A stretch of 64,000 nucleotides of DNA from Escherichia phage UPEC06 (MW250786); one strand, 5' to 3'; positions 2,766-15,041 are shown, counted from the stretch's first letter. The notes: generated by a model not told the origin, from the letters alone. Program-made: numbers and translations.

Positions 2766-3404
2766 TTACTCTTTCCCCTCTGAGAGTTTGATAATTAATT
2801 TTGCAGTTTCAGTTAGCTTACCATTAACGTTTTCAACGTCGAAATCTCTAGGTCGTGCACTTTCAGGAAAATTCTCAGAGTAAATATAATTACGAGAATC
2901 GCCTTCAAAAGTTAATTTATTACCAGTTCGTGGATCGGTACGGTGAAGACGGATCAATGTGTAATCTCCATTTACCGCCTTCACTACCGGAACGCTTTCA
3001 TGAACAAATCCACCATCAGAGCTAATAAACGTACAGGTATAACCATTCATTTCCATACTTTTCGCAATATCTTTGACACGCTTGGCAAGAGCAACACCAA
3101 AGTATTCTTCTCCGAAGAGAGGCTTCGCAACATTCTCAGAGATATGGATCAGCCAGTTACGTGGAGACACTTGTTTACCTGCAACATTGAAATATGGTTG
3201 AGGCACTTCTTTATAATCACGGTGGTAAAGTGCATCCCACAGTTCACGATTAATACCTGCAATACGAATAGCTAGATCGATAAGGGAACCTTTAAACTCA
3301 ACATGAATACCTACGTTATTATCTACCGTAACTAACTCTGCAATCTCTTTAGCAAGAGCATCTTTACCAGAAAAAGCAGGACCATTCAAATTGATAAATT
3401 TCAT
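2766..3404 (-). CDS. deoxynucleoside monophosphate kinase (P-loop)
   Basis: N-terminal MKFINLNGPAFSGKD P-loop resembling the T4 gp1 dNMP kinase N-terminus. Confidence 0.55.
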   Translation of the reverse strand: MKFINLNGPAFSGKDALAKEIAELVTVDNNVGIHVEFKGSLIDLAIRIAGINRELWDALYHRDYKEVPQPYFNVAGKQVSPRNWLIHISENVAKPLFGEEYFGVALAKRVKDIAKSMEMNGYTCTFISSDGGFVHESVPVVKAVNGDYTLIRLHRTDPRTGNKLTFEGDSRNYIYSENFPESARPRDFDVENVNGKLTETAKLIIKLSEGKE

Positions 3405-3425
3405 ATTAATCTCCTCTCAGTTTCA

Positions 3426-3451
3426 CAATAAAAAACCGCCCCGAAGGGCGG
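3426..3451 (-). terminator. rho-independent terminator (minus strand)
   Basis: CCGCCC-CGAA-GGGCGG hairpin followed on the minus strand by TTTTTATT, downstream of 3463..4557. Confidence 0.55.
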
Positions 3452-3462
3452 TTAAATCAAAA

Positions 3463-4557
3463 TTACAGAATGTTTGCCAGCGTTTTCTTCATCGCTGCCT
3501 TCTCGCGAACATTCTGACGATCTCGTGCACAAGAACCACATTCCTGGCAACGATAAACCTTGAACTTAGACAAGAACGTTACTGCTTTTTTACCTTCTTC
3601 AACAACCAGGTCGTCACTACCACAACGAACACAACGCATAGTTGATTGATCTTTGTGGAACAATGCAACGTTTGGATGTTTACGCATGAAAGGTCGTACA
3701 GTCAGGTACAGTTCTTCCAGCGTTGGGATATCACCAATGTTATATTCTTCCATCTCATCAAATGCTGTCGGATCACCTTCAACACAACGTCGCCACAGAC
3801 TGAAACCTTCATGCGACAGCTTACGACTATCAAGTTCAAAATAGTTACATGCTGCTTCAAGTGCATTTGAAGGAAGAGAGAAAGCTTCTTTCAGCGCAGC
3901 CAATGTATCGATCGTAATGTAAGGACTTGGTGGTTGCATACCGTAGTATGCGAAACGCTGGTTTGCCCAACCACGGTCAAAGCGAGCATTATGTGCGATG
4001 AAGATATCACATTCATCCAGAACTTTCCACAGGTCTTCGATCAACTTACGATCTGACTGGTGATCTCGTGCAAACTCTTCTGGATAATCCGTCAGCTTAC
4101 GGCTGAAGATCGACGGGTTGTGCAACCACTTACCAGCAAATGTCAGCATGTACGGTTCCATAATTACCTGCTTCGGTGCAATGAACTGTTTAAATCGTCC
4201 AAACGAATATGCAACAGAAGGAGATGTTTCAACGTCACCAAGGAAAACTTTAGCACCTGGGTTCTGCTCTTTGATCTTTTCAATAAAATCTTTTTCAATC
4301 TTAGCAACAGGTTCACCACTCGACTCTTTCTGCTGCATATATTCTGCATAGTTTTCGTAATCTTCATACGCCGGAGTCATTTCAAGGAGTTCTTTAACAC
4401 TTGAAACATCATTCTTTTCAATTTCACGACGGATCATATTACGAACCGTGGATTCCTGAGACTCTTTACCCAATTGGCGAGCTACTTCGCGCTGAGACAT
4501 ACCGTGTTTCATCAGTTGCAGAACTTGTTCAACAGTAAAAGTTACTTTATTAGTCAC
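3463..4557 (-). CDS. DEDDh (DnaQ-like) 3'-5' exonuclease domain protein with N-terminal HTH and C-terminal zinc ribbon
   Basis: HTH-like segment (SQREVARQLG), DVETS (exo I-like), FIAHNARFD (exo III HxxxxD), C-terminal CVRCG...CQECGSC. Confidence 0.5.
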   Translation of the reverse strand: MTNKVTFTVEQVLQLMKHGMSQREVARQLGKESQESTVRNMIRREIEKNDVSSVKELLEMTPAYEDYENYAEYMQQKESSGEPVAKIEKDFIEKIKEQNPGAKVFLGDVETSPSVAYSFGRFKQFIAPKQVIMEPYMLTFAGKWLHNPSIFSRKLTDYPEEFARDHQSDRKLIEDLWKVLDECDIFIAHNARFDRGWANQRFAYYGMQPPSPYITIDTLAALKEAFSLPSNALEAACNYFELDSRKLSHEGFSLWRRCVEGDPTAFDEMEEYNIGDIPTLEELYLTVRPFMRKHPNVALFHKDQSTMRCVRCGSDDLVVEEGKKAVTFLSKFKVYRCQECGSCARDRQNVREKAAMKKTLANIL

Positions 4558-4567
4558 TAAAAACTCC

Positions 4568-4813
4568 TTATTTAAAAAATTCGATTACATCGGCAACAGC
4601 AAAGTCACGGATATCTTGTTTATCTACATCATACGCTTTCATAAACCACTGTTCGCCACGATGATACGGCGATTCACCATACCACATTACTGGCGTACCA
4701 GTTACAGTACGATAACCACACTCACCTTTCCAATTGCGGTAATAAAACCGCAAGGTTGGTAAACCGTATGTGTTATGGTCAACTTCTTGACTCATACAAA
4801 TAACCCTCCTCAA
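4568..4813 (-). CDS. hypothetical protein
   Basis: ORF track; overlaps the upstream gene end by about 35 nt. Confidence 0.3.
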   Translation of the reverse strand: MRRVICMSQEVDHNTYGLPTLRFYYRNWKGECGYRTVTGTPVMWYGESPYHRGEQWFMKAYDVDKQDIRDFAVADVIEFFK

Positions 4814-5357
4814 GTTTATCGATAAACGCTTTCACATAAAGAGTTATCATCTCTCCTTTATCCAAACCCTCATCGATAACTACATTGTACCTCAATAAAG
4901 CGTTCATTGCAATTGTTTCTTTCTTTAATCTCTTCAAATATTTTTTCAGGTCAGCAACAATCTCACCATGAAACTTTCTTGAAGAGTAATCCCTTTCGAG
5001 ATAGTCAGCCATTCTACGTAGAACTTCACTCATTGTCAAGTCTGTTTTATCTTCCATGTGTTTAGACCAAAGTTTTTGTACACCGCCTTCGAAAAGGTTC
5101 AGGGTGCTTCCAATAACACCCCTAACCTTTCCATCAAAGTGATCATGGTCTAAACAAGGCTTCTCCATAACTTCACCCAGTATAGCACAAACTCCCTGTT
5201 GGTCAAGCAATATTTCATCACGATATTTTGCTATTTCCTTCGACCCACTCACCCAAAGATCCTTATTCAATTTAACACGGATAGGTGTAGTTGCCTTATC
5301 CTTCGCTGTGAATAGTGGCCTCTTTGACCGCCGCTTCCTCACTCTCGGTACTCGCAT
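4779..5357 (-). CDS. endonuclease VII-like (T4 gp49-like) junction-resolving nuclease
   Basis: CAILG...PCLDHDHFDGKVRGVIG matches the endo VII Cys / DHDH / GKVRG core; true start may be internal. Confidence 0.5.
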   Translation of the reverse strand: MRVPRVRKRRSKRPLFTAKDKATTPIRVKLNKDLWVSGSKEIAKYRDEILLDQQGVCAILGEVMEKPCLDHDHFDGKVRGVIGSTLNLFEGGVQKLWSKHMEDKTDLTMSEVLRRMADYLERDYSSRKFHGEIVADLKKYLKRLKKETIAMNALLRYNVVIDEGLDKGEMITLYVKAFIDKLEEGYLYESRS

Positions 5358-5964
5358 GTACTCCCTCCAAGGCCAAAGCCATTAAGAACTCACCGTGTGT
5401 AGGTGCAACAGGGTTTTCAAAATACTCTTCCATTCCGAAGCGATAAAGTGACATTGGAAAGTTTATATTACTAAACAGACTGTTGTCAACATTATTTTTA
5501 AACTCTAATGGAACGTTCGAATCAAAATCCTTAAAGAATTCAGATCGACTTGAGTTTATAAAAACCCTTAAAGCATTATCAAAAATCGGATTACCTTTTT
5601 GCTTCGTCAAATAAAGTAATTCTTTCAGTGAAGCTTTATCAGAAACAGATTTGAAAGAATACCCACTGATGATGATCTCGTCAAAACACATACCTCTGAC
5701 TTTTTGCCAAAAAGACCACTGTGCAGAACTGATCGTCTGAATGTGCATGTTCAGCTTAGATCGTTCATTAAACAGGTTTATATCGTAACCACTACGATCT
5801 TTCTGATAAGAACCAAACCCCAAGCTATTTGCAGTGTGCTTCAGTTTAGCAATGAAATCCCCCCTTTCGAGGGTATTCCAACAGATCACTAATTTCTTAC
5901 TCTGGTAAAACTCTTCAGATTCATAGCGTTCAATAACCGTTTCGTTCAAGGTAGCATCTCCCAA
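5296..5964 (-). CDS. hypothetical protein
   Basis: ORF track; no recognisable motif. Confidence 0.3.
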   Translation of the reverse strand: MGDATLNETVIERYESEEFYQSKKLVICWNTLERGDFIAKLKHTANSLGFGSYQKDRSGYDINLFNERSKLNMHIQTISSAQWSFWQKVRGMCFDEIIISGYSFKSVSDKASLKELLYLTKQKGNPIFDNALRVFINSSRSEFFKDFDSNVPLEFKNNVDNSLFSNINFPMSLYRFGMEEYFENPVAPTHGEFLMALALEGVHASTESEEAAVKEATIHSEG

Positions 5965-6508
5965 TTAAGTAGGCATCTGCAAGATCTGTAGACCCGCCGT
6001 TCTTACCTGTCTTTGAATATCCAGCTAAAAACCCAGGTTCCATCAACTCGCAAACCTTCATCATTTGATCTTTATCCATTTTAATTTTTTCCATCTTCGT
6101 ACCTTTTGCATTCATCACTTCTTGTTCTTCACCAGGTAACTTACCTCGTGCCCAAGATTTAACGGATGTTGGTGCAATTGTGTGTATGTTGTCCATACTA
6201 TACCCATCTCGAAGCAGTGTCAACTGAATACAGAAAAATAATCCTGCAAGATCCCTTGTCGCATTACCAGCAGAGCCGAAACTCAAAGACTCTAATACGA
6301 TCTTCTCAACCTTAAAAGATTCACAAATATCTGCAATGTGTCTAGAGATGTATGCCATCTGCTCGACAGGGTTGTCAAATCGAATCTGCCAGTCCTTGGC
6401 ATTTGCAGATCCGGTGGTTTTTAATACCTCTTTAAAGATCGGTTCATTACCGTCAAAAACTACACATGCACAAGAAGCCATACTCTGATCGATGGATAAA
6501 ATTTTCAC
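5930..6508 (-). CDS. putative RuvC/YqgF-like nuclease (tentative)
   Basis: N-terminal ILSIDQSMASCACVVF resembles the RuvC ILGIDPGS..GYGV first strand with catalytic Asp. Confidence 0.3.
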   Translation of the reverse strand: MKILSIDQSMASCACVVFDGNEPIFKEVLKTTGSANAKDWQIRFDNPVEQMAYISRHIADICESFKVEKIVLESLSFGSAGNATRDLAGLFFCIQLTLLRDGYSMDNIHTIAPTSVKSWARGKLPGEEQEVMNAKGTKMEKIKMDKDQMMKVCELMEPGFLAGYSKTGKNGGSTDLADAYLIGRCYLERNGY

Positions 6509-6816
6509 GCTGATTCCCCTTCTTCGGTATTATCAAGATAATGATACTGGTCGATTAAGAACACATAGTTCTTTACTTCTCCGTCCATGTAAACCATAAA
6601 AGTTACATATTTCTCATCATAGAACGGATCACCAACAACATAGATCTGGCAGATAGAATCAACACGTTTGTCAAACCACTGGATTCGCCAAGGCTCCTCA
6701 AGCATAGTCCAAGGTTCTTCAATCTTGTAGACCTGGCGCTTTGCGCCAGGAACTAGTGCTGCACGAATTTCGTCAGCGATCATAACATCATCAAAACTCT
6801 CAGAAAAACCCGACAT
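6505..6816 (-). CDS. hypothetical protein
   Basis: ORF track; translationally coupled to neighbours. Confidence 0.35.
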   Translation of the reverse strand: MSGFSESFDDVMIADEIRAALVPGAKRQVYKIEEPWTMLEEPWRIQWFDKRVDSICQIYVVGDPFYDEKYVTFMVYMDGEVKNYVFLIDQYHYLDNTEEGESA

Positions 6817-7925
6817 TAAATACCTACCCGTTTTAAAGTTGAGGCTAATGTTGTCTTATCATTTTCTGTACGTTTCATATAAACGCATTGGAAAATAACA
6901 GATGCCCATTGACCAGCAGAAAACTTACGAAGATTACCCAAATGATCCGTATATTCAACACCTTCGGGGAACCAACTCTTATATTGTTCAATAATAGCCA
7001 ACCACATACTCTTCTCGTCTGCACAAGGGGAGATGACCTGGAAAGCCGATGTTTCACCAAAGCGAAGACCCTCGAAGGTTTGATATGGTTTAACGTTATC
7101 CGCTGCATCACCGAATAGCATTTGGTAACCGAAGAATTTCTTACCCCAACCTTTTACCTTACCAGACTCCATCCAGATCTCACCCATAGAATCATCGATC
7201 AACCAAAGTTCAGGATGTTTCCATGTACGCTCTGTTGAGTCACGCATTGTGTTAAACAACAAAGAAGGAACCTGAACCTGATCCTTATCGAATGATGCCA
7301 CAATATGACTAAACTTTCCAGTCTTCCGATAATTTAAATATCCTTTATATCCAAGGATCGATAAATAATCATCTGCCTCAATACCATCCACAATGATCGC
7401 ACCATACTTCTGCTGAACATATCGACGAGTCTCCCCAAGCAACAGAGGACGTAAAGTATCTTCACGGTTACCCTTATAGATCTCAGGGGTCGGGAGTGCA
7501 AGACGGAAGTTACCACCCCCACCTAAAACACCAAGCCCGTTTGCTGATCCTACGTGTTCAAGAATAGCATTGATCTTAATCTTCAATAAGTGAAGACAGT
7601 TCTCCACTGGTTCTGGAGTTTGCTTTTCAATGATCTCGAAATCATCACGTGTCCACGGAGTAAATTCTTTTCCGCGAGCAACCGCTTTTGCTTCCATATT
7701 AATGTTTTGGTCTTTTAACCATCCACCAACAACATTCTTTTGGCGACCCCAAAACTCTGTTTTATTCTTAAACTCTTTCTCTCGGCCTGTTTCTTTGTGT
7801 CGAGCGATGATCGTTCGTTTTTCTGCACCAGCCGCAGCAACATAGCAAGTTTGATCGAGATCAAGTGCAACAACCACGTTGTCTTCGACAATACCTGACC
7901 AATCTTCAATTACCGGATAACCCAT
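6816..7925 (-). CDS. putative 5'-3' exonuclease / flap endonuclease (RNase H-like, FEN family)
   Basis: VVALDLDQTCYVAAAG and GAIIVDGIEADDYLSILG resemble FEN/T4 RNase H motifs (IDxS...; ExADD). Confidence 0.45.
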   Translation of the reverse strand: MGYPVIEDWSGIVEDNVVVALDLDQTCYVAAAGAEKRTIIARHKETGREKEFKNKTEFWGRQKNVVGGWLKDQNINMEAKAVARGKEFTPWTRDDFEIIEKQTPEPVENCLHLLKIKINAILEHVGSANGLGVLGGGGNFRLALPTPEIYKGNREDTLRPLLLGETRRYVQQKYGAIIVDGIEADDYLSILGYKGYLNYRKTGKFSHIVASFDKDQVQVPSLLFNTMRDSTERTWKHPELWLIDDSMGEIWMESGKVKGWGKKFFGYQMLFGDAADNVKPYQTFEGLRFGETSAFQVISPCADEKSMWLAIIEQYKSWFPEGVEYTDHLGNLRKFSAGQWASVIFQCVYMKRTENDKTTLASTLKRVGI

Positions 7926-7938
7926 AGACCTCTCCTTA

Positions 7939-8442
7939 TTAAAATGCTTCGCCGTAATCTTCGTCTTCTTTAACTTCTTTTACTGGTCGCTTAAATTTGA
8001 AATCTTTACCCATGTATTCATACAGGTAATCGATATTCAAAGACCATTCTTGCTTACTTCTTTGTCGCCATAATGCCGCAGCTTGCATAATGTATTCTTC
8101 GGCAGCTTTCTTGTCAACACCGTTAACTTTCATAAAGTGTTTAACTGCACGAGTCATGTTACCAGTCGCTTGAGCACGACCGATATGTTTTACTTCGTGG
8201 CAAGGAGGGCATAAAGCAATCACGCCTCGTAACACAACTTCACCATTAACAAAGTCCCAGATTTCGTGAGCTTCTACAGGATGCTTACGCCCATTCCCAC
8301 CTTTGCCCCCACAAACCTCGCAAGTGTAGTTAGCTTCTTGATAGCACTTTCGACGAACTTTGTCCCAACCAGCTTGGGTAAGGTAAGATCGGAGGTTATT
8401 GTCCCAAGCTGTGCTTGGAATTAATTCGATAGTCAATTTCAT
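7939..8442 (-). CDS. HNH-family endonuclease-like protein
   Basis: CEVCGG...HPVEAHEIWDF...CPPCHEVKH: CxxC / H..H / CxxCH arrangement. Confidence 0.4.
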   Translation of the reverse strand: MKLTIELIPSTAWDNNLRSYLTQAGWDKVRRKCYQEANYTCEVCGGKGGNGRKHPVEAHEIWDFVNGEVVLRGVIALCPPCHEVKHIGRAQATGNMTRAVKHFMKVNGVDKKAAEEYIMQAAALWRQRSKQEWSLNIDYLYEYMGKDFKFKRPVKEVKEDEDYGEAF

Positions 8443-9087
8443 TTAATATGCCTCACATTTACCAATCATATTCATAGCTTCAGAAACATCGATAATCATA
8501 TCCGTTGCTTCGTCCCAAGCTTTCCCCAAAAGATTCTCTCCATACCAGAAACTTTCATCATCTACCATAGGGTGATTCTCATCCATACCGATCCCCCATA
8601 TACGATCTCTCGGGGAGGCTTCTACAAACTTCAAACCCTTTTTACGGTAACCCACCGCCAGTTCACGAAGATTACCATTGTCGCACATACGACTATACAC
8701 TAAACGAGTGACAATATTAAATTTATTTTCATCCCAAACCGCCTGATCAAAATTCTTTACCTTACGACCTAGCGTTTTAGCACCTTGCGGCGTTACGGCC
8801 TTGATGATCCTTTCCGCTGAATCTTTGTCACCGAAAAGCATAGCCTTTTCATACATCATGTAATGCTCACCAGTGTGGAAATAAATCCCCTTCATCTTCT
8901 GGTCGAAGTTTGAAAACGGAGAGATCTCCTGGTAATGATTACTAAAAACATCACGATAAGAATAAAAGAACACATGTTTATCAGTGACTCGCATAAAAAC
9001 TCCTATAGATCCAATGCAGATATTGAAATTAAGAATAGCACTACCGAAAGTAATCCATCCGGCGTACTGAAAAATCCAATCCAGCAC
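8443..9087 (-). CDS. NADAR (YbiA-like) domain protein
   Basis: FSNF...GEHYMMYEKAMLF...EASPRDRIWGIG aligns by eye with E. coli YbiA/NADAR signatures; first ~30 codons hydrophobic, start may be internal. Confidence 0.7.
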   Translation of the reverse strand: MLDWIFQYAGWITFGSAILNFNICIGSIGVFMRVTDKHVFFYSYRDVFSNHYQEISPFSNFDQKMKGIYFHTGEHYMMYEKAMLFGDKDSAERIIKAVTPQGAKTLGRKVKNFDQAVWDENKFNIVTRLVYSRMCDNGNLRELAVGYRKKGLKFVEASPRDRIWGIGMDENHPMVDDESFWYGENLLGKAWDEATDMIIDVSEAMNMIGKCEAY

Positions 9088-9130
9088 GCTCTTGTGAACA
9101 GGTAGAATGCCAGTATTAAAACGATAACCC

Positions 9131-9367
9131 CTAAGAATGTTTCGATTTTTCTAACTCCCGAGCCATGATCTTAGTAATGTCAGCAAACGCCACGTAAGCA
9201 TGTTTGTAACAACCAACGTCAACCTTAAGGGATTTGATCTCTTCTTCCAGTACATTTATTGTATGGAGTGTTTGACGAATAAGATCAACATCCTTAGTTG
9301 TTATATTGGGTGAAGCTGTCATTAACTTAAGCCTTTCTTTAATCGTTTCGATATCTTGATTATACAT
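9131..9367 (-). CDS. hypothetical protein
   Basis: ORF track; predicted coiled-coil character. Confidence 0.35.
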   Translation of the reverse strand: MYNQDIETIKERLKLMTASPNITTKDVDLIRQTLHTINVLEEEIKSLKVDVGCYKHAYVAFADITKIMARELEKSKHS

Positions 9368-9692
9368 TCACAATCTCCAGTAAAGATCCAGGAATTGAAA
9401 CAGAACAGTTTTCTGCCATTGGGAATTTAGCAATCCAATCTGAAAGGCTGCAATAGGCAGACCAATCAAAGTCTTCGTCGAAAACGACAATATTATTAAA
9501 TTCCACACCATCAAGATTAACAATCTTTTTAATAATCAGGTCTTCGATCTGACTTGCCTTAAAAAGACCACAGATTTTGGATGGCAAGTTAAGTCCCCAC
9601 CGTTCACGAAATTCAGAATCTTCAAACTTGAAGAAACCAACTGCCTTTGCCAAGTCTGCTGCACGGACCTCTAAAATAACCGATTTACTCAT
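9360..9692 (-). CDS. hypothetical protein
   Basis: ORF track. Confidence 0.35.
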   Translation of the reverse strand: MSKSVILEVRAADLAKAVGFFKFEDSEFRERWGLNLPSKICGLFKASQIEDLIIKKIVNLDGVEFNNIVVFDEDFDWSAYCSLSDWIAKFPMAENCSVSIPGSLLEIVNV

Positions 9693-9941
9693 TTAATTTC
9701 CTCCTCGATCTGTGTAGTGCTGTATAATCTCATTTAAACATTTGCCTGTCAACGAAAATTTCTTAGCTACATAGCACTCAGCAATGTGTTCTTTCAAATC
9801 TTTAGAGTCTGTGTAGCCCATTTCAACAATGAAGTGACGGATCTTCGTCTTGTCCTTATCATTTAAAGAATTGAAATAATCACTTTTAGAATCAATTATT
9901 CTCATTTTCAAGTTTCCTGATCTGATAGTAAAGAGAGTCAA
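9693..9941 (-). CDS. hypothetical protein
   Basis: ORF track. Confidence 0.35.
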   Translation of the reverse strand: MTLFTIRSGNLKMRIIDSKSDYFNSLNDKDKTKIRHFIVEMGYTDSKDLKEHIAECYVAKKFSLTGKCLNEIIQHYTDRGGN

Positions 9942-10164
9942 TGATCTCTTCGTTGGCCTTAATGTACATATCCCGTAAGAAAGGTTTCAACCCATCACGC
10001 AAAATATTTCCATCACAAGCATCGTTCAGGTATGGATGGCCTAGAGCCTCCCAGGCAGGTTGATTGGTATAAGTGCCCCAGCCTTGATTCATCATCTGGT
10101 TAAGGTGCTCGATTTGTTTTATCTTAAGCTGCAAAGCTTCAATAGTAATCTGTTTAATATCCAT
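9892..10164 (-). CDS. hypothetical protein
   Basis: ORF track; overlaps neighbour, start uncertain. Confidence 0.3.
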   Translation of the reverse strand: MDIKQITIEALQLKIKQIEHLNQMMNQGWGTYTNQPAWEALGHPYLNDACDGNILRDGLKPFLRDMYIKANEEIIDSLYYQIRKLENENN

Positions 10165-10625
10165 CAGTAAAGGTCCTCAGAGTAAAGTTCTTTTTCATTA
10201 CCACCACGTTCAATACGTACTTGTCCAGCGTAAGTTGCAATAATCATTGCTTCTTCACGTGTCCAATAATTGCTATATTGGTCAATAAACCCTTGGTCAT
10301 CATCACAAACTTGTTGAGTAACTAATTGAGGTTTAACTACATCTAAAACTTCTGCCATATCTTTAGAATAATGACGAGCACCTGGAATAATAAGAGTTCG
10401 TCCATCTTTTAATTTAAAACGGTTGGCTGCGCAGACAATTCGTCGTTGATACTTTTGGTTTTCATCCCAATACAGAGTCTGCCAACAGATTTCAGGAACT
10501 TCATCTAAAACATTTTGTTCTGTATATTCACCACCGTAAGAAGCTAATTTAGCAGCCAGACTTTCCGGAGTCTCACGCGACAAAGCTTTATCTAACAGAG
10601 CTAAACGTTCTTTAAAAGTTTTCAA
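10164..10625 (-). CDS. hypothetical protein
   Basis: ORF track. Confidence 0.35.
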
Positions 10626-10629
10626 TTGA

Positions 10630-10818
10630 TCACCCCTTTGTAGTAGAATCTTGCTTGGTCATTTCACGAAGAATAAGTGCTCCAATATTTTCAAGAAGTG
10701 TTACAAGAGAGTCAACCTCAGGTAACTTAATACTCTTGGCTTCTTTACTCATCCCATCACGAACTCCCGAAATTTGCATAAACACGGCAATCATTTCTTT
10801 TGTAAGTTTAATATTCAT
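10630..10818 (-). CDS. hypothetical protein
   Basis: ORF track. Confidence 0.3.
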
Positions 10819-10885
10819 TTTATCTCCTGTTGTTGGTTGATATGGGTATTATACAGAACTGGAGGCAGGTGTCAAGAGATATATA

Positions 10886-10910
10886 AAGAAAACCGCCCCG
10901 AAGGGCGGTT
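10886..10910 (-). terminator. rho-independent terminator (minus strand)
   Basis: Same AAAACCGCCCCGAAGGGCGGTT hairpin as at 3431-3451, followed on the minus strand by TTTTCTTT. Confidence 0.5.
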
Positions 10911-10919
10911 TAAAAATTT

Positions 10920-11162
10920 TTACCAATTTGCGTAACCATCTTGTTCATCGGTATCACGATCTATGATTCGTGGCTTTGGAGTTAGATCCATATGAGCAAG
11001 AGGCGTACCTTCTGGAATATCATTCAGTGAATATTCAACATTTACCAGTTGACCTGTAAGCTCATCCATCTTTTGGGAGATATACGCTGCAACTGATCGA
11101 CCCTCCAGAGTAGCCAGGTATTTCAGTTTTTCGTAAGTTGCGTCGTTAAAATTAATATTCAT
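10920..11162 (-). CDS. putative ribbon-helix-helix (CopG/Arc-like) DNA-binding protein
   Basis: ATYEKLKYLATLEGRSVAAYISQ resembles an RHH strand-helix-helix motif. Confidence 0.35.
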   Translation of the reverse strand: MNINFNDATYEKLKYLATLEGRSVAAYISQKMDELTGQLVNVEYSLNDIPEGTPLAHMDLTPKPRIIDRDTDEQDGYANW

Positions 11163-11224
11163 ATTTGTATCTCCTTTTTGTATTTTTCATTACAAGGACC
11201 ACACTAACGTGGCCCGATCGTTAC

Positions 11225-11446
11225 TTAAGCTACCAGTTCTAAATCTTCAGCTTCTGCGTAGAAACCATCGACGATAACACCGTCCTGACGTGTGAATGCA
11301 ACAATAACATCTCCCCAATCTTCATCGACGAATTCAACAACGCCAATATCTCCAAATCGAACACCAGACAAACTGTAGCGGTCTTCATAATTACCTAACG
11401 GACTGAACTTAACTGTCTGACCTGGATTAACTTCTTTGATATTCAC
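11225..11446 (-). CDS. hypothetical protein
   Basis: ORF track. Confidence 0.35.
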   Translation of the reverse strand: MNIKEVNPGQTVKFSPLGNYEDRYSLSGVRFGDIGVVEFVDEDWGDVIVAFTRQDGVIVDGFYAEAEDLELVA

Positions 11447-11486
11447 AGAATTTCTCCTTATACAACTTTAAGATATTAACTTTATA

Positions 11487-11798
11487 TTATTCTTCATCAA
11501 CTTCACGACCCATCAAGATATCAAGTTCGTTCAGTTGTTCAATCTGGCTTTCAAGCGCTGCACGTTTCTTCTCTGCTGCATCTTGCTTATCGTATTCACC
11601 GTTGATCAGGGTACGTAGGAATTTAGGGTCGATGTTCAGGTCTTCTTTAGTGATCGCCAGGATGCTTTTCAGATCTTCAGCAGCATCTTTCTGACGACGA
11701 ACAGCTTCAACACCTTCCTGAACAATGTTAGCCAGACGCTTACGAACTTCCAGGTCAGAAGGCAGGGTATTGATCAGTTCGATTTTAGATTTAGCCAT
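11487..11798 (-). CDS. hypothetical protein
   Basis: ORF track; charged, helical character. Confidence 0.35.
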   Translation of the reverse strand: MAKSKIELINTLPSDLEVRKRLANIVQEGVEAVRRQKDAAEDLKSILAITKEDLNIDPKFLRTLINGEYDKQDAAEKKRAALESQIEQLNELDILMGREVDEE

Positions 11799-13673: not shown

Positions 13674-15041
13674 TTAAACCTCCTCTGCAATTTTACGAAG
13701 AAGATCCAGAAGAGAATTCGATGCCTCGATCACTTCTTCTAGACTGTTGGCTACACTCTTATCAAAACGAAGCTCAACAAACTTATAATTTAAACGTGGC
13801 AGAAATAGGGATTTCAGATCTTTATTTTCTGCGTCAGTAATGTCATTAGCTTTGATCGTAATAATCTGACCAATAAAATACTCACTTGGTTTTTTACGAA
13901 GTGCATCAGTAAGTCCAGAGCCAGCACCAACCTCAAGAAGTCCATCACGAGTACGGCAGATCAGAGATCCAATAAGCCCAGGTTTCTTTTTGTGAGGCGT
14001 TGTCGCCACAACTTCAAGATCAACATCGAACTCATTTTTAAGTTTGATCCCTTTCTTAGTTTTGTTATCTCCCCAAGGCATATTCGCTTCTTTAAGAACC
14101 GTACCCTCTTTCTTCTGCAAACGCATTTCGATAAAGTGGTCAATAGCCTCTTTAAGACTGCCAATCTGACGACCACGGATCATCTGGAAATGAGAAGACT
14201 CATCAACATAGTTGACAATATTTTCAACCTGCTTACGACGATCTTTATATTTTTTCTTGGATTTACGTGCGATATACTCGTCCATAGAAACAACATCCCA
14301 AACAACCAAACGTACCAGATTAGGATCAATGTTTTCAGGATCTTGGTTAAGATATCCGTTACCGATCTCTCGTGGTTGAACCCCGTGCGGGTATGACAGG
14401 TCAATAACTAAACCTTCCCCGTGCATAACAAAAGGACCATCAGAATTGGCTTTTTCTTTCAGGTTTTGCTCAAGTGAAGGAATACACCGGAAATTAAGCT
14501 CTTTCCCTGATCGTGAACGATAAATGATCTGCTCAGGCCAAACCATAATGTCTGCATAAAGTCCGTCCATCTTCTCGTCGGAGAAAGCACCCTCGTAGTT
14601 GAAATTACGAAGGAGATCCTCTTTGAAAAGGGTGTAGCTTTGGTAAGGAGGCTCTGTAATCAGATCCTTCCAAACCTTGTTGGTCAGGGTTGTCTGGATA
14701 CCACACTCAAGATCGCGGTTAATGATCTTCAGCAGTGTTTCTGGTTCTTCGCACAGTTGAACAGCATTCGTGAGAACATCACGGGCTTCATGCCCAGTAT
14801 ACATACGACTTGCAACATCGTTGACGATAAGATCAATACTCTCTTGCAGATTACGGCTTCCTTGGTGGAAAGTTGCAGGATCAACCTTAAAACTGCGAAC
14901 AAAAAAGTTTAACTCTTTGCTATATGCTACCCGAAATACTTCACGCAGGCCATCATTGTCCGCATGGCTACGTAAGATCGCTTCTTTTTCTTTTGTTGAT
15001 CCGGTTGCTGCAAGTTGTTCGATAATCTTAGTTACGCTCAT
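13674..15041 (-). CDS. ATP-dependent DNA ligase (T4 gp30-like)
   Basis: N-terminus closely parallels T4 DNA ligase (ILNEIASIGSTKQKQAIL); RDLECG...NKVW block; KMDG adenylation motif; C-terminal AGSGL block. Confidence 0.8.
   Translation of the reverse strand: MSVTKIIEQLAATGSTKEKEAILRSHADNDGLREVFRVAYSKELNFFVRSFKVDPATFHQGSRNLQESIDLIVNDVASRMYTGHEARDVLTNAVQLCEEPETLLKIINRDLECGIQTTLTNKVWKDLITEPPYQSYTLFKEDLLRNFNYEGAFSDEKMDGLYADIMVWPEQIIYRSRSGKELNFRCIPSLEQNLKEKANSDGPFVMHGEGLVIDLSYPHGVQPREIGNGYLNQDPENIDPNLVRLVVWDVVSMDEYIARKSKKKYKDRRKQVENIVNYVDESSHFQMIRGRQIGSLKEAIDHFIEMRLQKKEGTVLKEANMPWGDNKTKKGIKLKNEFDVDLEVVATTPHKKKPGLIGSLICRTRDGLLEVGAGSGLTDALRKKPSEYFIGQIITIKANDITDAENKDLKSLFLPRLNYKFVELRFDKSVANSLEEVIEASNSLLDLLRKIAEEV

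What the first reader, a model, noticed from the sequence alone, without database searches (positions are those of the whole stretch)
4779..8442. Dense cluster of structure-specific nucleases
Within about 3.7 kb there are four nuclease-like genes: endonuclease VII-like, RuvC-like (tentative), FEN/RNase H-like and HNH-like. Two distinct junction-resolvase candidates side by side is unusual; one may have a different role such as packaging-associated debranching or host DNA degradation.
Basis: partly seen in the sequence, partly recalled or inferred. Interest (0 to 1): 0.35.

Follow-up and report, generated by a model that had tools for sequence, protein, structure and literature searches.

The report
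Conserved phage nuclease operon, two resolvases
This stretch is the DNA-processing part of an early operon of a large E. coli phage; it encodes five nucleases, including two different enzymes for cutting branched DNA, and the same layout is found in about 250 sequenced relatives, so it is real and a little unusual but not new.

Summary
Window 4779-8442 (minus strand) carries four nuclease-type genes:
- a T4-type endonuclease VII (4779-5357);
- a RuvC-type resolvase (5930-6508);
- a T7 gene-6-type 5'-3' exonuclease/FEN (6816-7925);
- an HNH-like zinc-finger protein (7939-8442).

The EndoVII, RuvC and FEN calls are strongly supported. The HNH call is moderately supported.

The window comes from a Septuagintavirus (Vequintavirinae), about 96% identical to E. 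coli phages A5-4 and LTH01. All five genes sit in one predicted sigma-70 transcription unit, bracketed by two identical terminator hairpins.

The RuvC-then-EndoVII pair is adjacent and collinear in 255 phage records. That is 93% of the records holding this RuvC subfamily. Both genes keep their catalytic residues and are under purifying selection. It is, however, a hallmark of a clade, not of this window.

The EndoVII lacks three of the four zinc cysteines of T4 gp49 and carries a basic N-terminal tail. The HNH-like gene is a core gene, not a homing endonuclease.

Verdict: ordinary conserved module with a modestly interesting, unstudied dual-resolvase pair.

The parts
10848..10875 (-). Predicted sigma-70 promoter of the transcription unit (TTGACA, 16 nt spacer, TATAAT; 12 of 12 matches)
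   Evidence: (the only perfect match in 3000-11500) and sequence. Function is inferred from the consensus match only.
10890..10911 (-). Intrinsic-terminator-like hairpin ending the upstream unit; its 20-nt core is identical to the hairpin at 3434-3453
   Evidence: The core has exactly two copies in the window, against 0.01 expected by chance.
7939..8442 (-). HNH-like zinc-finger (beta-beta-alpha-Me) protein, 167 aa. Invariant residues are C41, C44, H59, E60, C78, C81, H82 and H86. The Asn of the HNH motif is replaced by Gly.
6816..7925 (-). 5'-3' exonuclease / flap endonuclease of the T7 gene 6 type, 369 aa. It has acidic clusters D22/D24, E183/D185/D186, D213/D215 and D273/D276, and an insert of about 100 aa after the first strand.
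   Evidence: PHROG 107 E 5.6e-65. Alignment. PDB profile hits: 9l56 at 1e-8, Taq, T5 FEN. hhalign against T7 gp6: probability 97.1%. tblastn reaches the K1E/SP6-type exonucleases.
6505..6816 (-). Conserved 103-aa protein of unknown function between the FEN and RuvC genes
   Evidence: PHROG 13101 E 4.5e-36. No PDB match. pN/pS 0.02-0.24. An ORF of similar size sits in the same position in FFH2 but belongs to a different PHROG.
5930..6508 (-). RuvC-type Holliday junction resolvase, 192 aa, with catalytic D7, E73, D175 and D178. It carries a subfamily-specific insert of about 25 aa (about residues 122-146).
   Evidence: pN/pS 0.02-0.04.
5296..5964 (-). Lineage-specific, fast-evolving 222-aa ORF inserted between the RuvC and EndoVII genes; function unknown
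   Evidence: PHROG 12410 E 1.2e-20. Found in only 31 records, always at this position, at 26-30% identity where the flanking genes are 66-75% identical. No PDB match. pN/pS about 0.1.
4779..5357 (-). T4-type endonuclease VII, 192 aa, with catalytic D70, H71, H73 and N87. Only one of the four zinc cysteines of T4 gp49 is retained. It has a basic N-terminal tail (MRVPRVRKRRSKRP...).
   Evidence: The start ATG at 5357 is preceded by GGAGG. pN/pS 0.03-0.11.
4568..4813 (-). Small WYL-like protein (81 aa) conserved downstream of EndoVII
   Evidence: Pfam WYL E 0.0011, below the cut-off. PHROG 3715 E 7.7e-25. Syntenic in FFH2 and in metagenomic loci L006/L007.
3463..4557 (-). DnaQ/DEDD-type 3'-5' exonuclease ('DNA polymerase exonuclease subunit') with an N-terminal helix-turn-helix; the fifth nuclease of the unit
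   Evidence: Pfam RNase_T E 4.6e-7. PHROG 403 E 3e-113. NCBIfam epsilon-subunit models hit weakly. 42% identity to the FFH2 orthologue.
3434..3453 (-). Intrinsic-terminator-like hairpin closing the unit; same 20-nt core as 10891-10910

Best explanation
This is the DNA replication/recombination nuclease block of one early or middle operon of a Vequintavirinae (Septuagintavirus) myovirus. It is inherited vertically as a unit.

Shown here:
- The gene identities and their intact catalytic motifs.
- Conserved synteny and purifying selection.
- A consensus promoter and two flanking terminator hairpins.

Inferred mechanism:
- The phage replicates through recombination-dependent, branched concatemers.
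- The T7-gp6-type 5'-3' exonuclease/FEN removes primers and flaps and resects ends. The DNA ligase encoded at 13674-15041 could seal the nicks.
- The DnaQ-like exonuclease proofreads for the phage polymerase.
- The RuvC-type and EndoVII-type enzymes cut four-way and three-way branches, so that the concatemer can be replicated onward and packaged.
- Both resolvases are active and not fully redundant, because the pair has been kept together, in the same order and often overlapping, across very divergent genomes.
- The HNH-like protein is a conserved accessory of this module, most likely a metal-dependent nicking or cutting enzyme of unknown target.
For: - Identity of the phage: 95.6-96.4% DNA identity to E. 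coli phages LTH01, A5-4, A7_1, A73 and W70. All are classed as Vequintavirinae.
- Gene calls.
- Synteny: HNH, FEN, small ORF, RuvC, EndoVII, WYL-like and DnaQ-exo occur in the same order in rV5-like FFH2 at 38-53% identity. FEN, RuvC and EndoVII are in the same order in Aeromonas phage 2L372D and in a 140-kb metagenomic contig.
- The pair: a fused RuvC+EndoVII query finds 255 records with the pair adjacent and collinear, out of 274 records with this RuvC subfamily.
- Catalytic residues: RuvC D7/E73/D175/D178 are invariant. EndoVII D, H, H and N are kept in 145-148 of 151 family sequences.
- Selection: pN/pS is 0.02-0.16 for all genes against close relatives.
- One transcription unit: a perfect promoter at 10875-10848, and identical terminator hairpins found only at 10891-10910 and 3434-3453. 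Gene junctions are tight or overlapping.
- A ligase, thymidylate synthase and dNMP kinase lie nearby.
- T7 offers a precedent: its DNA-metabolism genes include a resolvase (gene 3), an HNH gene (3.8) and the gene 6 exonuclease (annotation).
Against: - No biochemical or expression data exist for any of these proteins.
- The EndoVII lacks three of the four zinc ligands. According to PMC6083498, C23S and C61S mutants of T4 EndoVII are inactive and cannot bind DNA, so activity here is not guaranteed.
- The promoter and terminators are consensus matches only. The total count of promoter-like sites is no higher than in shuffled sequence.
- Two resolvases could simply be redundant.
Confidence: 0.72

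Rival explanations
1. One of the two 'resolvases' no longer resolves junctions and has been put to another use. For example, the zinc-less, basic-tailed EndoVII could act in mismatch or heteroduplex-loop nicking, in packaging-coupled debranching only, or in host DNA breakdown. Alternatively, the RuvC-like enzyme could cut stalled forks or D-loops, or branched DNA made by host defences.
For: - The EndoVII subfamily has lost the zinc site and gained a conserved Arg/Lys-rich N-terminal tail.
- The RuvC subfamily carries a specific insert of about 25 aa in place of the short GSG loop of canonical RuvC.
- Elsewhere the two resolvase types tend to exclude one another. Stable co-retention therefore suggests different jobs.
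- The Septuagintavirus paper (PMC11370258) credits T4 endonuclease VII with roles in mismatch repair and packaging debranching.
Against: - Both keep complete catalytic sets and typical lengths and folds.
- Phage resolvases are generally promiscuous on branched DNA (abstract of PMC3864405). A sharp functional split is therefore not required to explain retention.
- There are no data on substrates.
Confidence: 0.3
2. The HNH-like gene (7939-8442) is a free-standing homing endonuclease, that is, a selfish mobile gene. It would then not be a working part of the module, as the A5-4 annotators and several rV5 records imply.
For: - It is annotated 'homing endonuclease' in A5-4 and several rV5-like records.
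- Homologues at about 50% identity occur in unrelated large phages and megaphage-like contigs.
- Local DNA divergence from close relatives is highest here, at 8.3-8.7%.
- A genuine HNH homing-type gene (PHROG 99) is inserted right next to it in A5-4.
Against: - It is present in 245 records with the same taxon profile as the RuvC-EndoVII pair.
- It sits at the same position upstream of the FEN gene in different genera.
- Its divergence from the FFH2 (rV5-like) orthologue (46%) matches that of the neighbouring core genes (38-53%).
- pN/pS is 0.04-0.12.
- No NUMOD or other long-target DNA-binding module was detected.
Confidence: 0.1
3. The HNH-like protein is not a nuclease at all. It would be a zinc-binding adaptor or DNA-binding protein that keeps only the treble-clef scaffold.
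For: - The motif Asn is absent, and the residue before the candidate general base is Ala or Cys rather than His or Asp.
- Foldseek found nothing significant.
Against: - H59, E60, H82 and H86 are invariant across phages as distant as groundwater megaphage contigs. That is more than a purely structural zinc site needs.
- The spacing from H59 to the second CxxC equals that of the PF01844 consensus as I recall it (own knowledge; residue positions).
- There are weak but repeated hits to true HNH nucleases: GVE2, McrA, IscB, ZorE and ZRANB3.
Confidence: 0.15

Closest known systems
Bacteriophage T4 endonuclease VII (gp49; Pfam PF02945; PDB 1en7, 1e7d, 2qnc)
   Same: - Same family: Pfam hit above its cut-off, and phmmer E 3e-6 over T4 residues 32-150, which include the C-terminal helical domain.
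- Catalytic D40, H41, H43 and N62, plus E65 and R54, all have equivalents: D70, H71, H73, N87, E90 and R79.
   Different: - Three of the four zinc-binding cysteines are replaced (C26 to L, C58 to G, C61 to L).
- It carries a basic N-terminal tail that T4 gp49 does not have, judged from alignment coverage and from the T4 N-terminus as I recall it (residues 1-31 were not shown by any tool).
- It is encoded next to a RuvC gene, which I know of no counterpart for in T4 (own knowledge, not tested).
RuvC Holliday junction resolvases (E. coli 1hjr, T. thermophilus 4ld0, D. radiodurans 7xhj; phage bIL67 RuvC 4ktw; fowlpox resolvase 6p7a)
   Same: - RNase H-like fold with RuvC topology (target-normalised TM-score (TMt) 0.6-0.8).
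- A D-E-D-D catalytic tetrad.
- No RuvA/RuvB partner was seen in the genes examined, as for other viral RuvC enzymes.
   Different: - Only 12-17% identity to solved RuvC proteins.
- Not detected by the Pfam or NCBIfam RuvC models.
- About 25 aa inserted where canonical RuvC has a short Gly-rich loop.
- Always paired with an EndoVII gene.
T7 gene 6 5'-3' exonuclease and the FEN/5'-nuclease family (T5 D15, Taq polymerase N-terminal domain, PDB 9l56)
   Same: - The core 5'-nuclease acidic clusters and the K/R motif (FR...YKxNR, EADD, DKD, GDxxDN).
- hhalign probability 97.1% to T7 gp6.
   Different: - Longer (369 aa against 300 aa), with a conserved insert of about 100 aa after the first strand.
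- The Pfam model scores below its cut-off.
HNH (beta-beta-alpha-Me) nucleases such as phage GVE2 HNH (5h0m), McrA, and the IscB/Cas9 HNH domain
   Same: - Two CxxC pairs.
- A His in the first strand and CH...H in the helix.
- A beta-hairpin followed by a helix in the model.
   Different: - The motif Asn is Gly.
- An extra helical C-terminal domain.
- Similarity is weak by every structure measure.
- A core gene rather than a mobile or terminase-associated one.
T7 class II DNA-metabolism genes (gene 3 endonuclease I, gene 3.8 HNH, gene 6 exonuclease)
   Same: A junction resolvase, an HNH protein and a gp6-type exonuclease are encoded together among the DNA-metabolism genes. The T7 record credits the gene 6 exonuclease with recombination and with degradation of host DNA; its note on gene 3 is cut off after 'Holliday junction resolvase'.
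   Different: - T7 has one resolvase, of an unrelated fold.
- The T7 gp3.8 HNH shows no detectable relation to the HNH-like protein here.

Membership tests
Endonuclease VII (Pfam PF02945 / T4 gp49 type) | Profile match above the curated threshold | tested here: met
   PF02945 scores 29.5 bits against a cut-off of 23.6. PHROG 423 E 1.5e-31. T4 EndoVII PDB chains E 3e-6.
Endonuclease VII (Pfam PF02945 / T4 gp49 type) | Catalytic D40, H41, H43 and N62 (T4 numbering) | tested here: met
   D70, H71, H73 and N87 are present. These columns are kept in 145-148 of 151 family sequences. Their roles are as summarised in PMC6083498.
Endonuclease VII (Pfam PF02945 / T4 gp49 type) | Structural zinc site of four cysteines (T4 C23, C26, C58, C61). 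This is a feature of the T4 prototype. | tested here: not met
   Only the C23 equivalent (C57) is kept; the others are L60, G83 and L86. Only 21 of 151 family sequences have all four Cys, so the site does not define the family as a whole. The gene belongs to a zinc-less subgroup.
Endonuclease VII (Pfam PF02945 / T4 gp49 type) | Domain-swapped dimer that cleaves branched DNA | not testable with these tools
   Needs biochemistry or a solved structure.
RuvC resolvase (Pfam PF02075) | RNase H-like fold with RuvC topology | tested here: met
   AF2 model with pLDDT 95.7. The top 15 Foldseek PDB hits are RuvC, Ydc2 and bIL67 RuvC; fowlpox resolvase follows at rank 17. E ranges from 9e-9 to 6e-5.
RuvC resolvase (Pfam PF02075) | Four acidic catalytic residues (D, E, D/H, D) | tested here: met
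   D7, E73, D175 and D178 are invariant in an alignment that includes PF02075-positive proteins.
RuvC resolvase (Pfam PF02075) | Match to the curated Pfam or NCBIfam RuvC model | tested here: not met
   No hit at E < 0.1. The profile search against PDB sequences also failed. The link is through homologues at E 1e-10 to 1e-16 that carry PF02075 and through PHROG 159.
RuvC resolvase (Pfam PF02075) | Homodimer making paired, symmetric nicks in Holliday junctions | not testable with these tools
   Needs enzyme assays.
FEN / 5'-3' exonuclease (PF02739; T7 gene 6 type) | Profile similarity to characterised 5' nucleases | tested here: met
   The family profile hits PDB 9l56 at 1e-8, Taq at 1.8e-4 and T5 FEN at 1.3e-3. 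hhalign to T7 gp6 gives probability 97.1%, E 6e-11.
FEN / 5'-3' exonuclease (PF02739; T7 gene 6 type) | Clusters of conserved acidic metal-binding residues | tested here: met
   E183, D185, D186, D213, D215, D273 and D276 are invariant. D22 and D24 are nearly invariant.
FEN / 5'-3' exonuclease (PF02739; T7 gene 6 type) | Pfam gathering threshold for the protein itself | tested here: not met
   PF02739 scores 13.1 bits against a cut-off of 34.3. Distant family members do carry PF02739 and PF01367.
HNH nuclease (PF01844; beta-beta-alpha-Me) | Two CxxC pairs, a His in strand 1 and a His in the helix | tested here: met
   C41, C44, H59, C78, C81, H82 and H86 are invariant in 23 diverse homologues. 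The model has strands 57-65 and 68-77 followed by helix 79-85.
HNH nuclease (PF01844; beta-beta-alpha-Me) | The central Asn of the H-N-H motif | tested here: not met
   The position five residues before C78 is Gly (Arg in a few homologues). The mapping onto the Pfam consensus spacing is my own.
HNH nuclease (PF01844; beta-beta-alpha-Me) | Significant match to curated HNH models or solved HNH structures | tested here: inconclusive
Free-standing homing endonuclease | Sporadic presence or absence among close relatives, at variable sites | tested here: not met
   The HNH-like gene is present in all five close relatives and in 245 records, at a conserved position. By contrast, the PHROG-99 HNH gene of A5-4 is absent from the window and from LTH01.

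The most novel reading that the evidence does not exclude
The conserved, often overlapping RuvC-then-EndoVII gene pair encodes two non-redundant branch-processing nucleases that work as a coupled system. One possible split is that RuvC acts on true four-way junctions during recombination-dependent replication. The zinc-less, basic-tailed EndoVII would then serve as a general debranching and mismatch enzyme at packaging. Alternatively, the two could form a physical complex. Either way, this would make the clade an exception to the usual rule of one resolvase type per phage.
Probability: 0.3. Interest if true: 0.5.

Novelty: new member of a known kind. Interest (0 to 1): 0.3.

Why it matters
If both resolvases are active and not redundant, this clade of therapeutic-candidate E. 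coli, Klebsiella and Salmonella phages would be a natural system for asking why a virus needs two different junction-cutting enzymes. It would also show how an EndoVII enzyme works without the zinc site that the T4 enzyme needs for DNA binding.

Practically, the work corrects annotations:
- The RuvC gene is usually labelled 'hypothetical' or 'RNaseH'.
- The EndoVII start is called too short in two of the five closest records (A5-4 and LTH01).
- The core HNH-like gene is often mislabelled 'homing endonuclease'.

Otherwise the locus is an ordinary, well-conserved DNA-metabolism module.

Tried and rejected
- Sequence searches of the RuvC-like protein against Pfam, NCBIfam and PDB found nothing, both as a single sequence and as a 20-sequence profile. 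The call rests instead on PHROG, the homologue chain and the fold search.
- A single-sequence PDB search of the FEN-like protein found nothing. The family profile was needed.
- hhalign of the HNH-like family against T7 gp3.8 HNH showed no relation.
- PDB searches of the two unknown ORFs (222 aa and 103 aa) found nothing.
- A PADLOC scan showed no defence-system membership for the four nucleases; the only hit was a weak ZorE HNH match.
- Literature searches found no paper that discusses the RuvC plus EndoVII pair in Vequintavirinae. The Septuagintavirus paper mentions only endonuclease VII.
- I considered that the cluster might be a chance juxtaposition or a mobile island. I rejected this because of the conserved synteny.
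- I considered that the RuvC-like gene might be an RNase H, as some records annotate it. I rejected this because no RNase H1/H2 structure appears among the top fold matches, while resolvases fill the top ranks.

Full report
**What is there**

The region 3.4-11 kb of the window is packed with minus-strand ORFs that abut or overlap. The finding's limits, 4779-8442, coincide exactly with the ends of two ORFs. DNA of 3400-9200 is 95.6-96.4% identical to E. coli phages LTH01, A5-4, A7_1, A73 and W70. These are classed as Vequintavirinae. One source names the A5-4 species Septuagintavirus sv54. The HNH-like protein is 100% identical to one from phage UPEC06.

**Endonuclease VII-like gene (4779-5357)**

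- It passes Pfam PF02945 (29.5 bits, cut-off 23.6) and PHROG 423 (E 1.5e-31).
- It aligns to T4 endonuclease VII structures over T4 residues 32-150 (E 3e-6).
- The catalytic residues of T4 (D40, H41, H43, N62; roles as summarised in PMC6083498) correspond to D70, H71, H73 and N87.
- Of the four zinc cysteines, only the first is kept; the others are Leu, Gly and Leu.
- This is typical of the subfamily. Among 151 sequences (the query plus 150 cluster representatives), 21 have four Cys and 116 have one or none. The D, H, H and N columns are kept in 145-148.
- The upstream ATG at 5357 follows a GGAGG motif. It adds an Arg/Lys-rich tail that is conserved in homologues. The 192-aa reading is therefore preferred over the shorter starts annotated in A5-4 and LTH01.

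**RuvC-like gene (5930-6508)**

- Pfam, NCBIfam and PDB sequence searches fail.
- PHROG 159 'RuvC-like Holliday junction resolvase' matches at 8e-33.
- Homologues at E 1e-10 to 1e-16 over the full length carry PF02075.
- D7, E73, D175 and D178 are invariant.
- A confident AF2 model (pLDDT 95.7) matches RuvC of D. radiodurans, T. thermophilus, E. coli and P. aeruginosa. It also matches yeast Ydc2, phage bIL67 RuvC and fowlpox resolvase ahead of almost everything else.
- The subfamily has an insert of about 25 aa where canonical RuvC has a short Gly-rich loop.

**FEN-like gene (6816-7925)**

- PHROG 107 'exonuclease' matches at 5.6e-65.
- A 25-sequence family profile hits a solved 5'-3' exonuclease at 1e-8, plus the Taq 5' nuclease and T5 FEN.
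- hhalign to T7 gene 6 exonuclease gives probability 97.1%.
- The acidic clusters are invariant or nearly so.
- tblastn links it to the exonucleases of K1E/SP6-type, PAK_P1-type and ICP1 phages.

**HNH-like gene (7939-8442)**

- PHROG 5200 (4e-71) and nine other HNH PHROGs match.
- Invariant residues are C41, C44, H59, E60, C78, C81, H82 and H86.
- The model (pLDDT 87.6) has a beta-hairpin followed by a helix.
- Support outside PHROG is weak but consistent:
  - GVE2 HNH, E 0.013;
  - 14 of 23 relatives hit PF01844;
  - IscB and ZorE, each 1.3e-3;

**Context**

- A DnaQ-like exonuclease (3463-4557) is a fifth nuclease in the same block.
- A perfect sigma-70 consensus promoter lies at 10875-10848, just after a terminator hairpin. 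The 20-nt core of that hairpin recurs only once in the window, at 3434-3453, directly after the DnaQ-like gene.
- This suggests a single unit of about 7.4 kb. That is an inference from consensus matches only.
- Ligase, thymidylate synthase and dNMP kinase genes lie nearby.

**Conservation**

- The gene order HNH, FEN, small ORF, RuvC, EndoVII, WYL-like, DnaQ-exo is kept in rV5-like FFH2 at 38-53% identity.
- FEN, RuvC and EndoVII are kept in Aeromonas phage 2L372D and in a 140-kb metagenomic contig.
- A fused RuvC+EndoVII query finds 255 records with the adjacent collinear pair, against 274 records with this RuvC subfamily.
- The HNH-like gene is in 245 records with the same taxon profile. It is therefore a core gene, unlike the PHROG-99 HNH gene that A5-4 carries between the FEN and HNH-like genes. 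That gene is missing from the window and from LTH01.
- pN/pS against close relatives is 0.02-0.16 for every gene.

**Is the dual resolvase unusual?**

- Iyer et al. 2021 state that EndoVII-like and RuvC-like resolvases are nearly complementary among jumbo phages (PMC7824862).
- Canonical-length RuvC relatives sit after SbcCD-like genes in T4-like metagenomic phages, with no EndoVII within 8 kb.
- The subfamilies of EndoVII that lack a RuvC neighbour are in T4-like and jumbo phages.
- The pairing is therefore a clade-specific exception. Recent PHROG-based annotations already label both genes.
- I found no paper that discusses the pair.

**Mechanism**

- Shown: gene identities, intact motifs, synteny and selective constraint.
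- Inferred:
  - The gp6-type exonuclease trims primers and flaps and resects ends.
  - The DnaQ-like enzyme proofreads.
  - RuvC and EndoVII remove branches from recombination-dependent replication intermediates before packaging.
  - The HNH-like protein is an accessory nuclease of unknown target.
- It is undecided whether the two resolvases divide labour, form a complex or are merely redundant.

**Verdict**

The locus is a new member of known kinds. The dual-resolvase pair and the zinc-less EndoVII are modest points of interest.

Noticed in passing
window 8443-9087 (-): A NADAR-domain protein is encoded directly abutting the HNH-like gene. Hits: PF08719 E 6e-37, TIGR02464 E 3e-37, PADLOC PDC-M42C E 7e-25 and a weak NCBIfam 'NADAR family anti-phage protein' match. 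From my own knowledge, NADAR enzymes are reported to reverse ADP-ribosylation of DNA, so this may be an anti-defence gene. It was not found in the FFH2 (rV5-like) locus.
   Followed up: partly
window 5296-5964 (-): A 222-aa ORF is wedged between the RuvC and EndoVII genes and overlaps both. It is found in only 31 records (Certrevirus, Septuagintavirus, SSBI34). It is only 26-30% identical where its neighbours are 66-75% identical, so it evolves fast. Its function is unknown.
   Followed up: partly
L001 7526-8020 (phage A5-4) versus window 7926-7938: A5-4 carries a 164-aa PHROG-99 HNH endonuclease gene between the FEN and HNH-like genes. In the window, and apparently in LTH01, the two genes are separated by only about 13 bp. 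This presence/absence pattern fits a homing endonuclease insertion. DNA divergence is highest in the adjacent HNH-like gene, at 8.3-8.7%.
   Followed up: partly
window 3434-3453 and 10891-10910 (-): An identical 20-nt GC-rich hairpin (AACCGCCCTTCGGGGCGGTT) followed by a T-run occurs exactly twice in the 64 kb, bracketing the nuclease operon. The upstream copy is followed at once by a perfect TTGACA-16-TATAAT promoter.
   Followed up: yes
L006/L007 10245-10727 (metagenomic phage contigs): In an abundant metagenomic relative, a homologue of the HNH-like protein (38% identity) sits just upstream of the WYL-like gene. That is the position EndoVII holds in the window. No EndoVII was found within 8 kb of the RuvC gene there, so one beta-beta-alpha-Me nuclease may have replaced another.
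   Followed up: partly
window 4568-4813 (-): A small WYL-like protein (81 aa) is conserved directly downstream of EndoVII in Vequintavirinae and in metagenomic relatives. It may be a regulator or a nucleic-acid-binding partner.
   Followed up: no
window 9693-9941 (-) and neighbours up to 10625: Small ORFs upstream in the same predicted operon include one matching PHROG 4452 'anti-restriction nuclease' (E 8e-37). Its neighbours are annotated the same way in A5-4.
   Followed up: no
GenBank records MG0656xx labelled 'Campylobacter phage': About 20 records labelled as Campylobacter jejuni phages carry this module at the same identity as rV5-like E. coli phages. Their organism or host label may therefore be wrong.
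   Followed up: no
window 4779-8442 versus L001 and L002: Divergence from the two closest relatives changes gene by gene. For example, EndoVII differs by 1.2% from LTH01 and 3.3% from A5-4, whereas RuvC differs by 5.5% and 2.4%. This indicates recombinational mosaicism among Septuagintaviruses.
   Followed up: partly
window about 18000 and about 57000: GC skew changes sign near 18 kb and again near 57 kb. Near 18 kb, coding switches from the minus to the plus strand. The 57-kb switch was inferred from skew alone.
   Followed up: no
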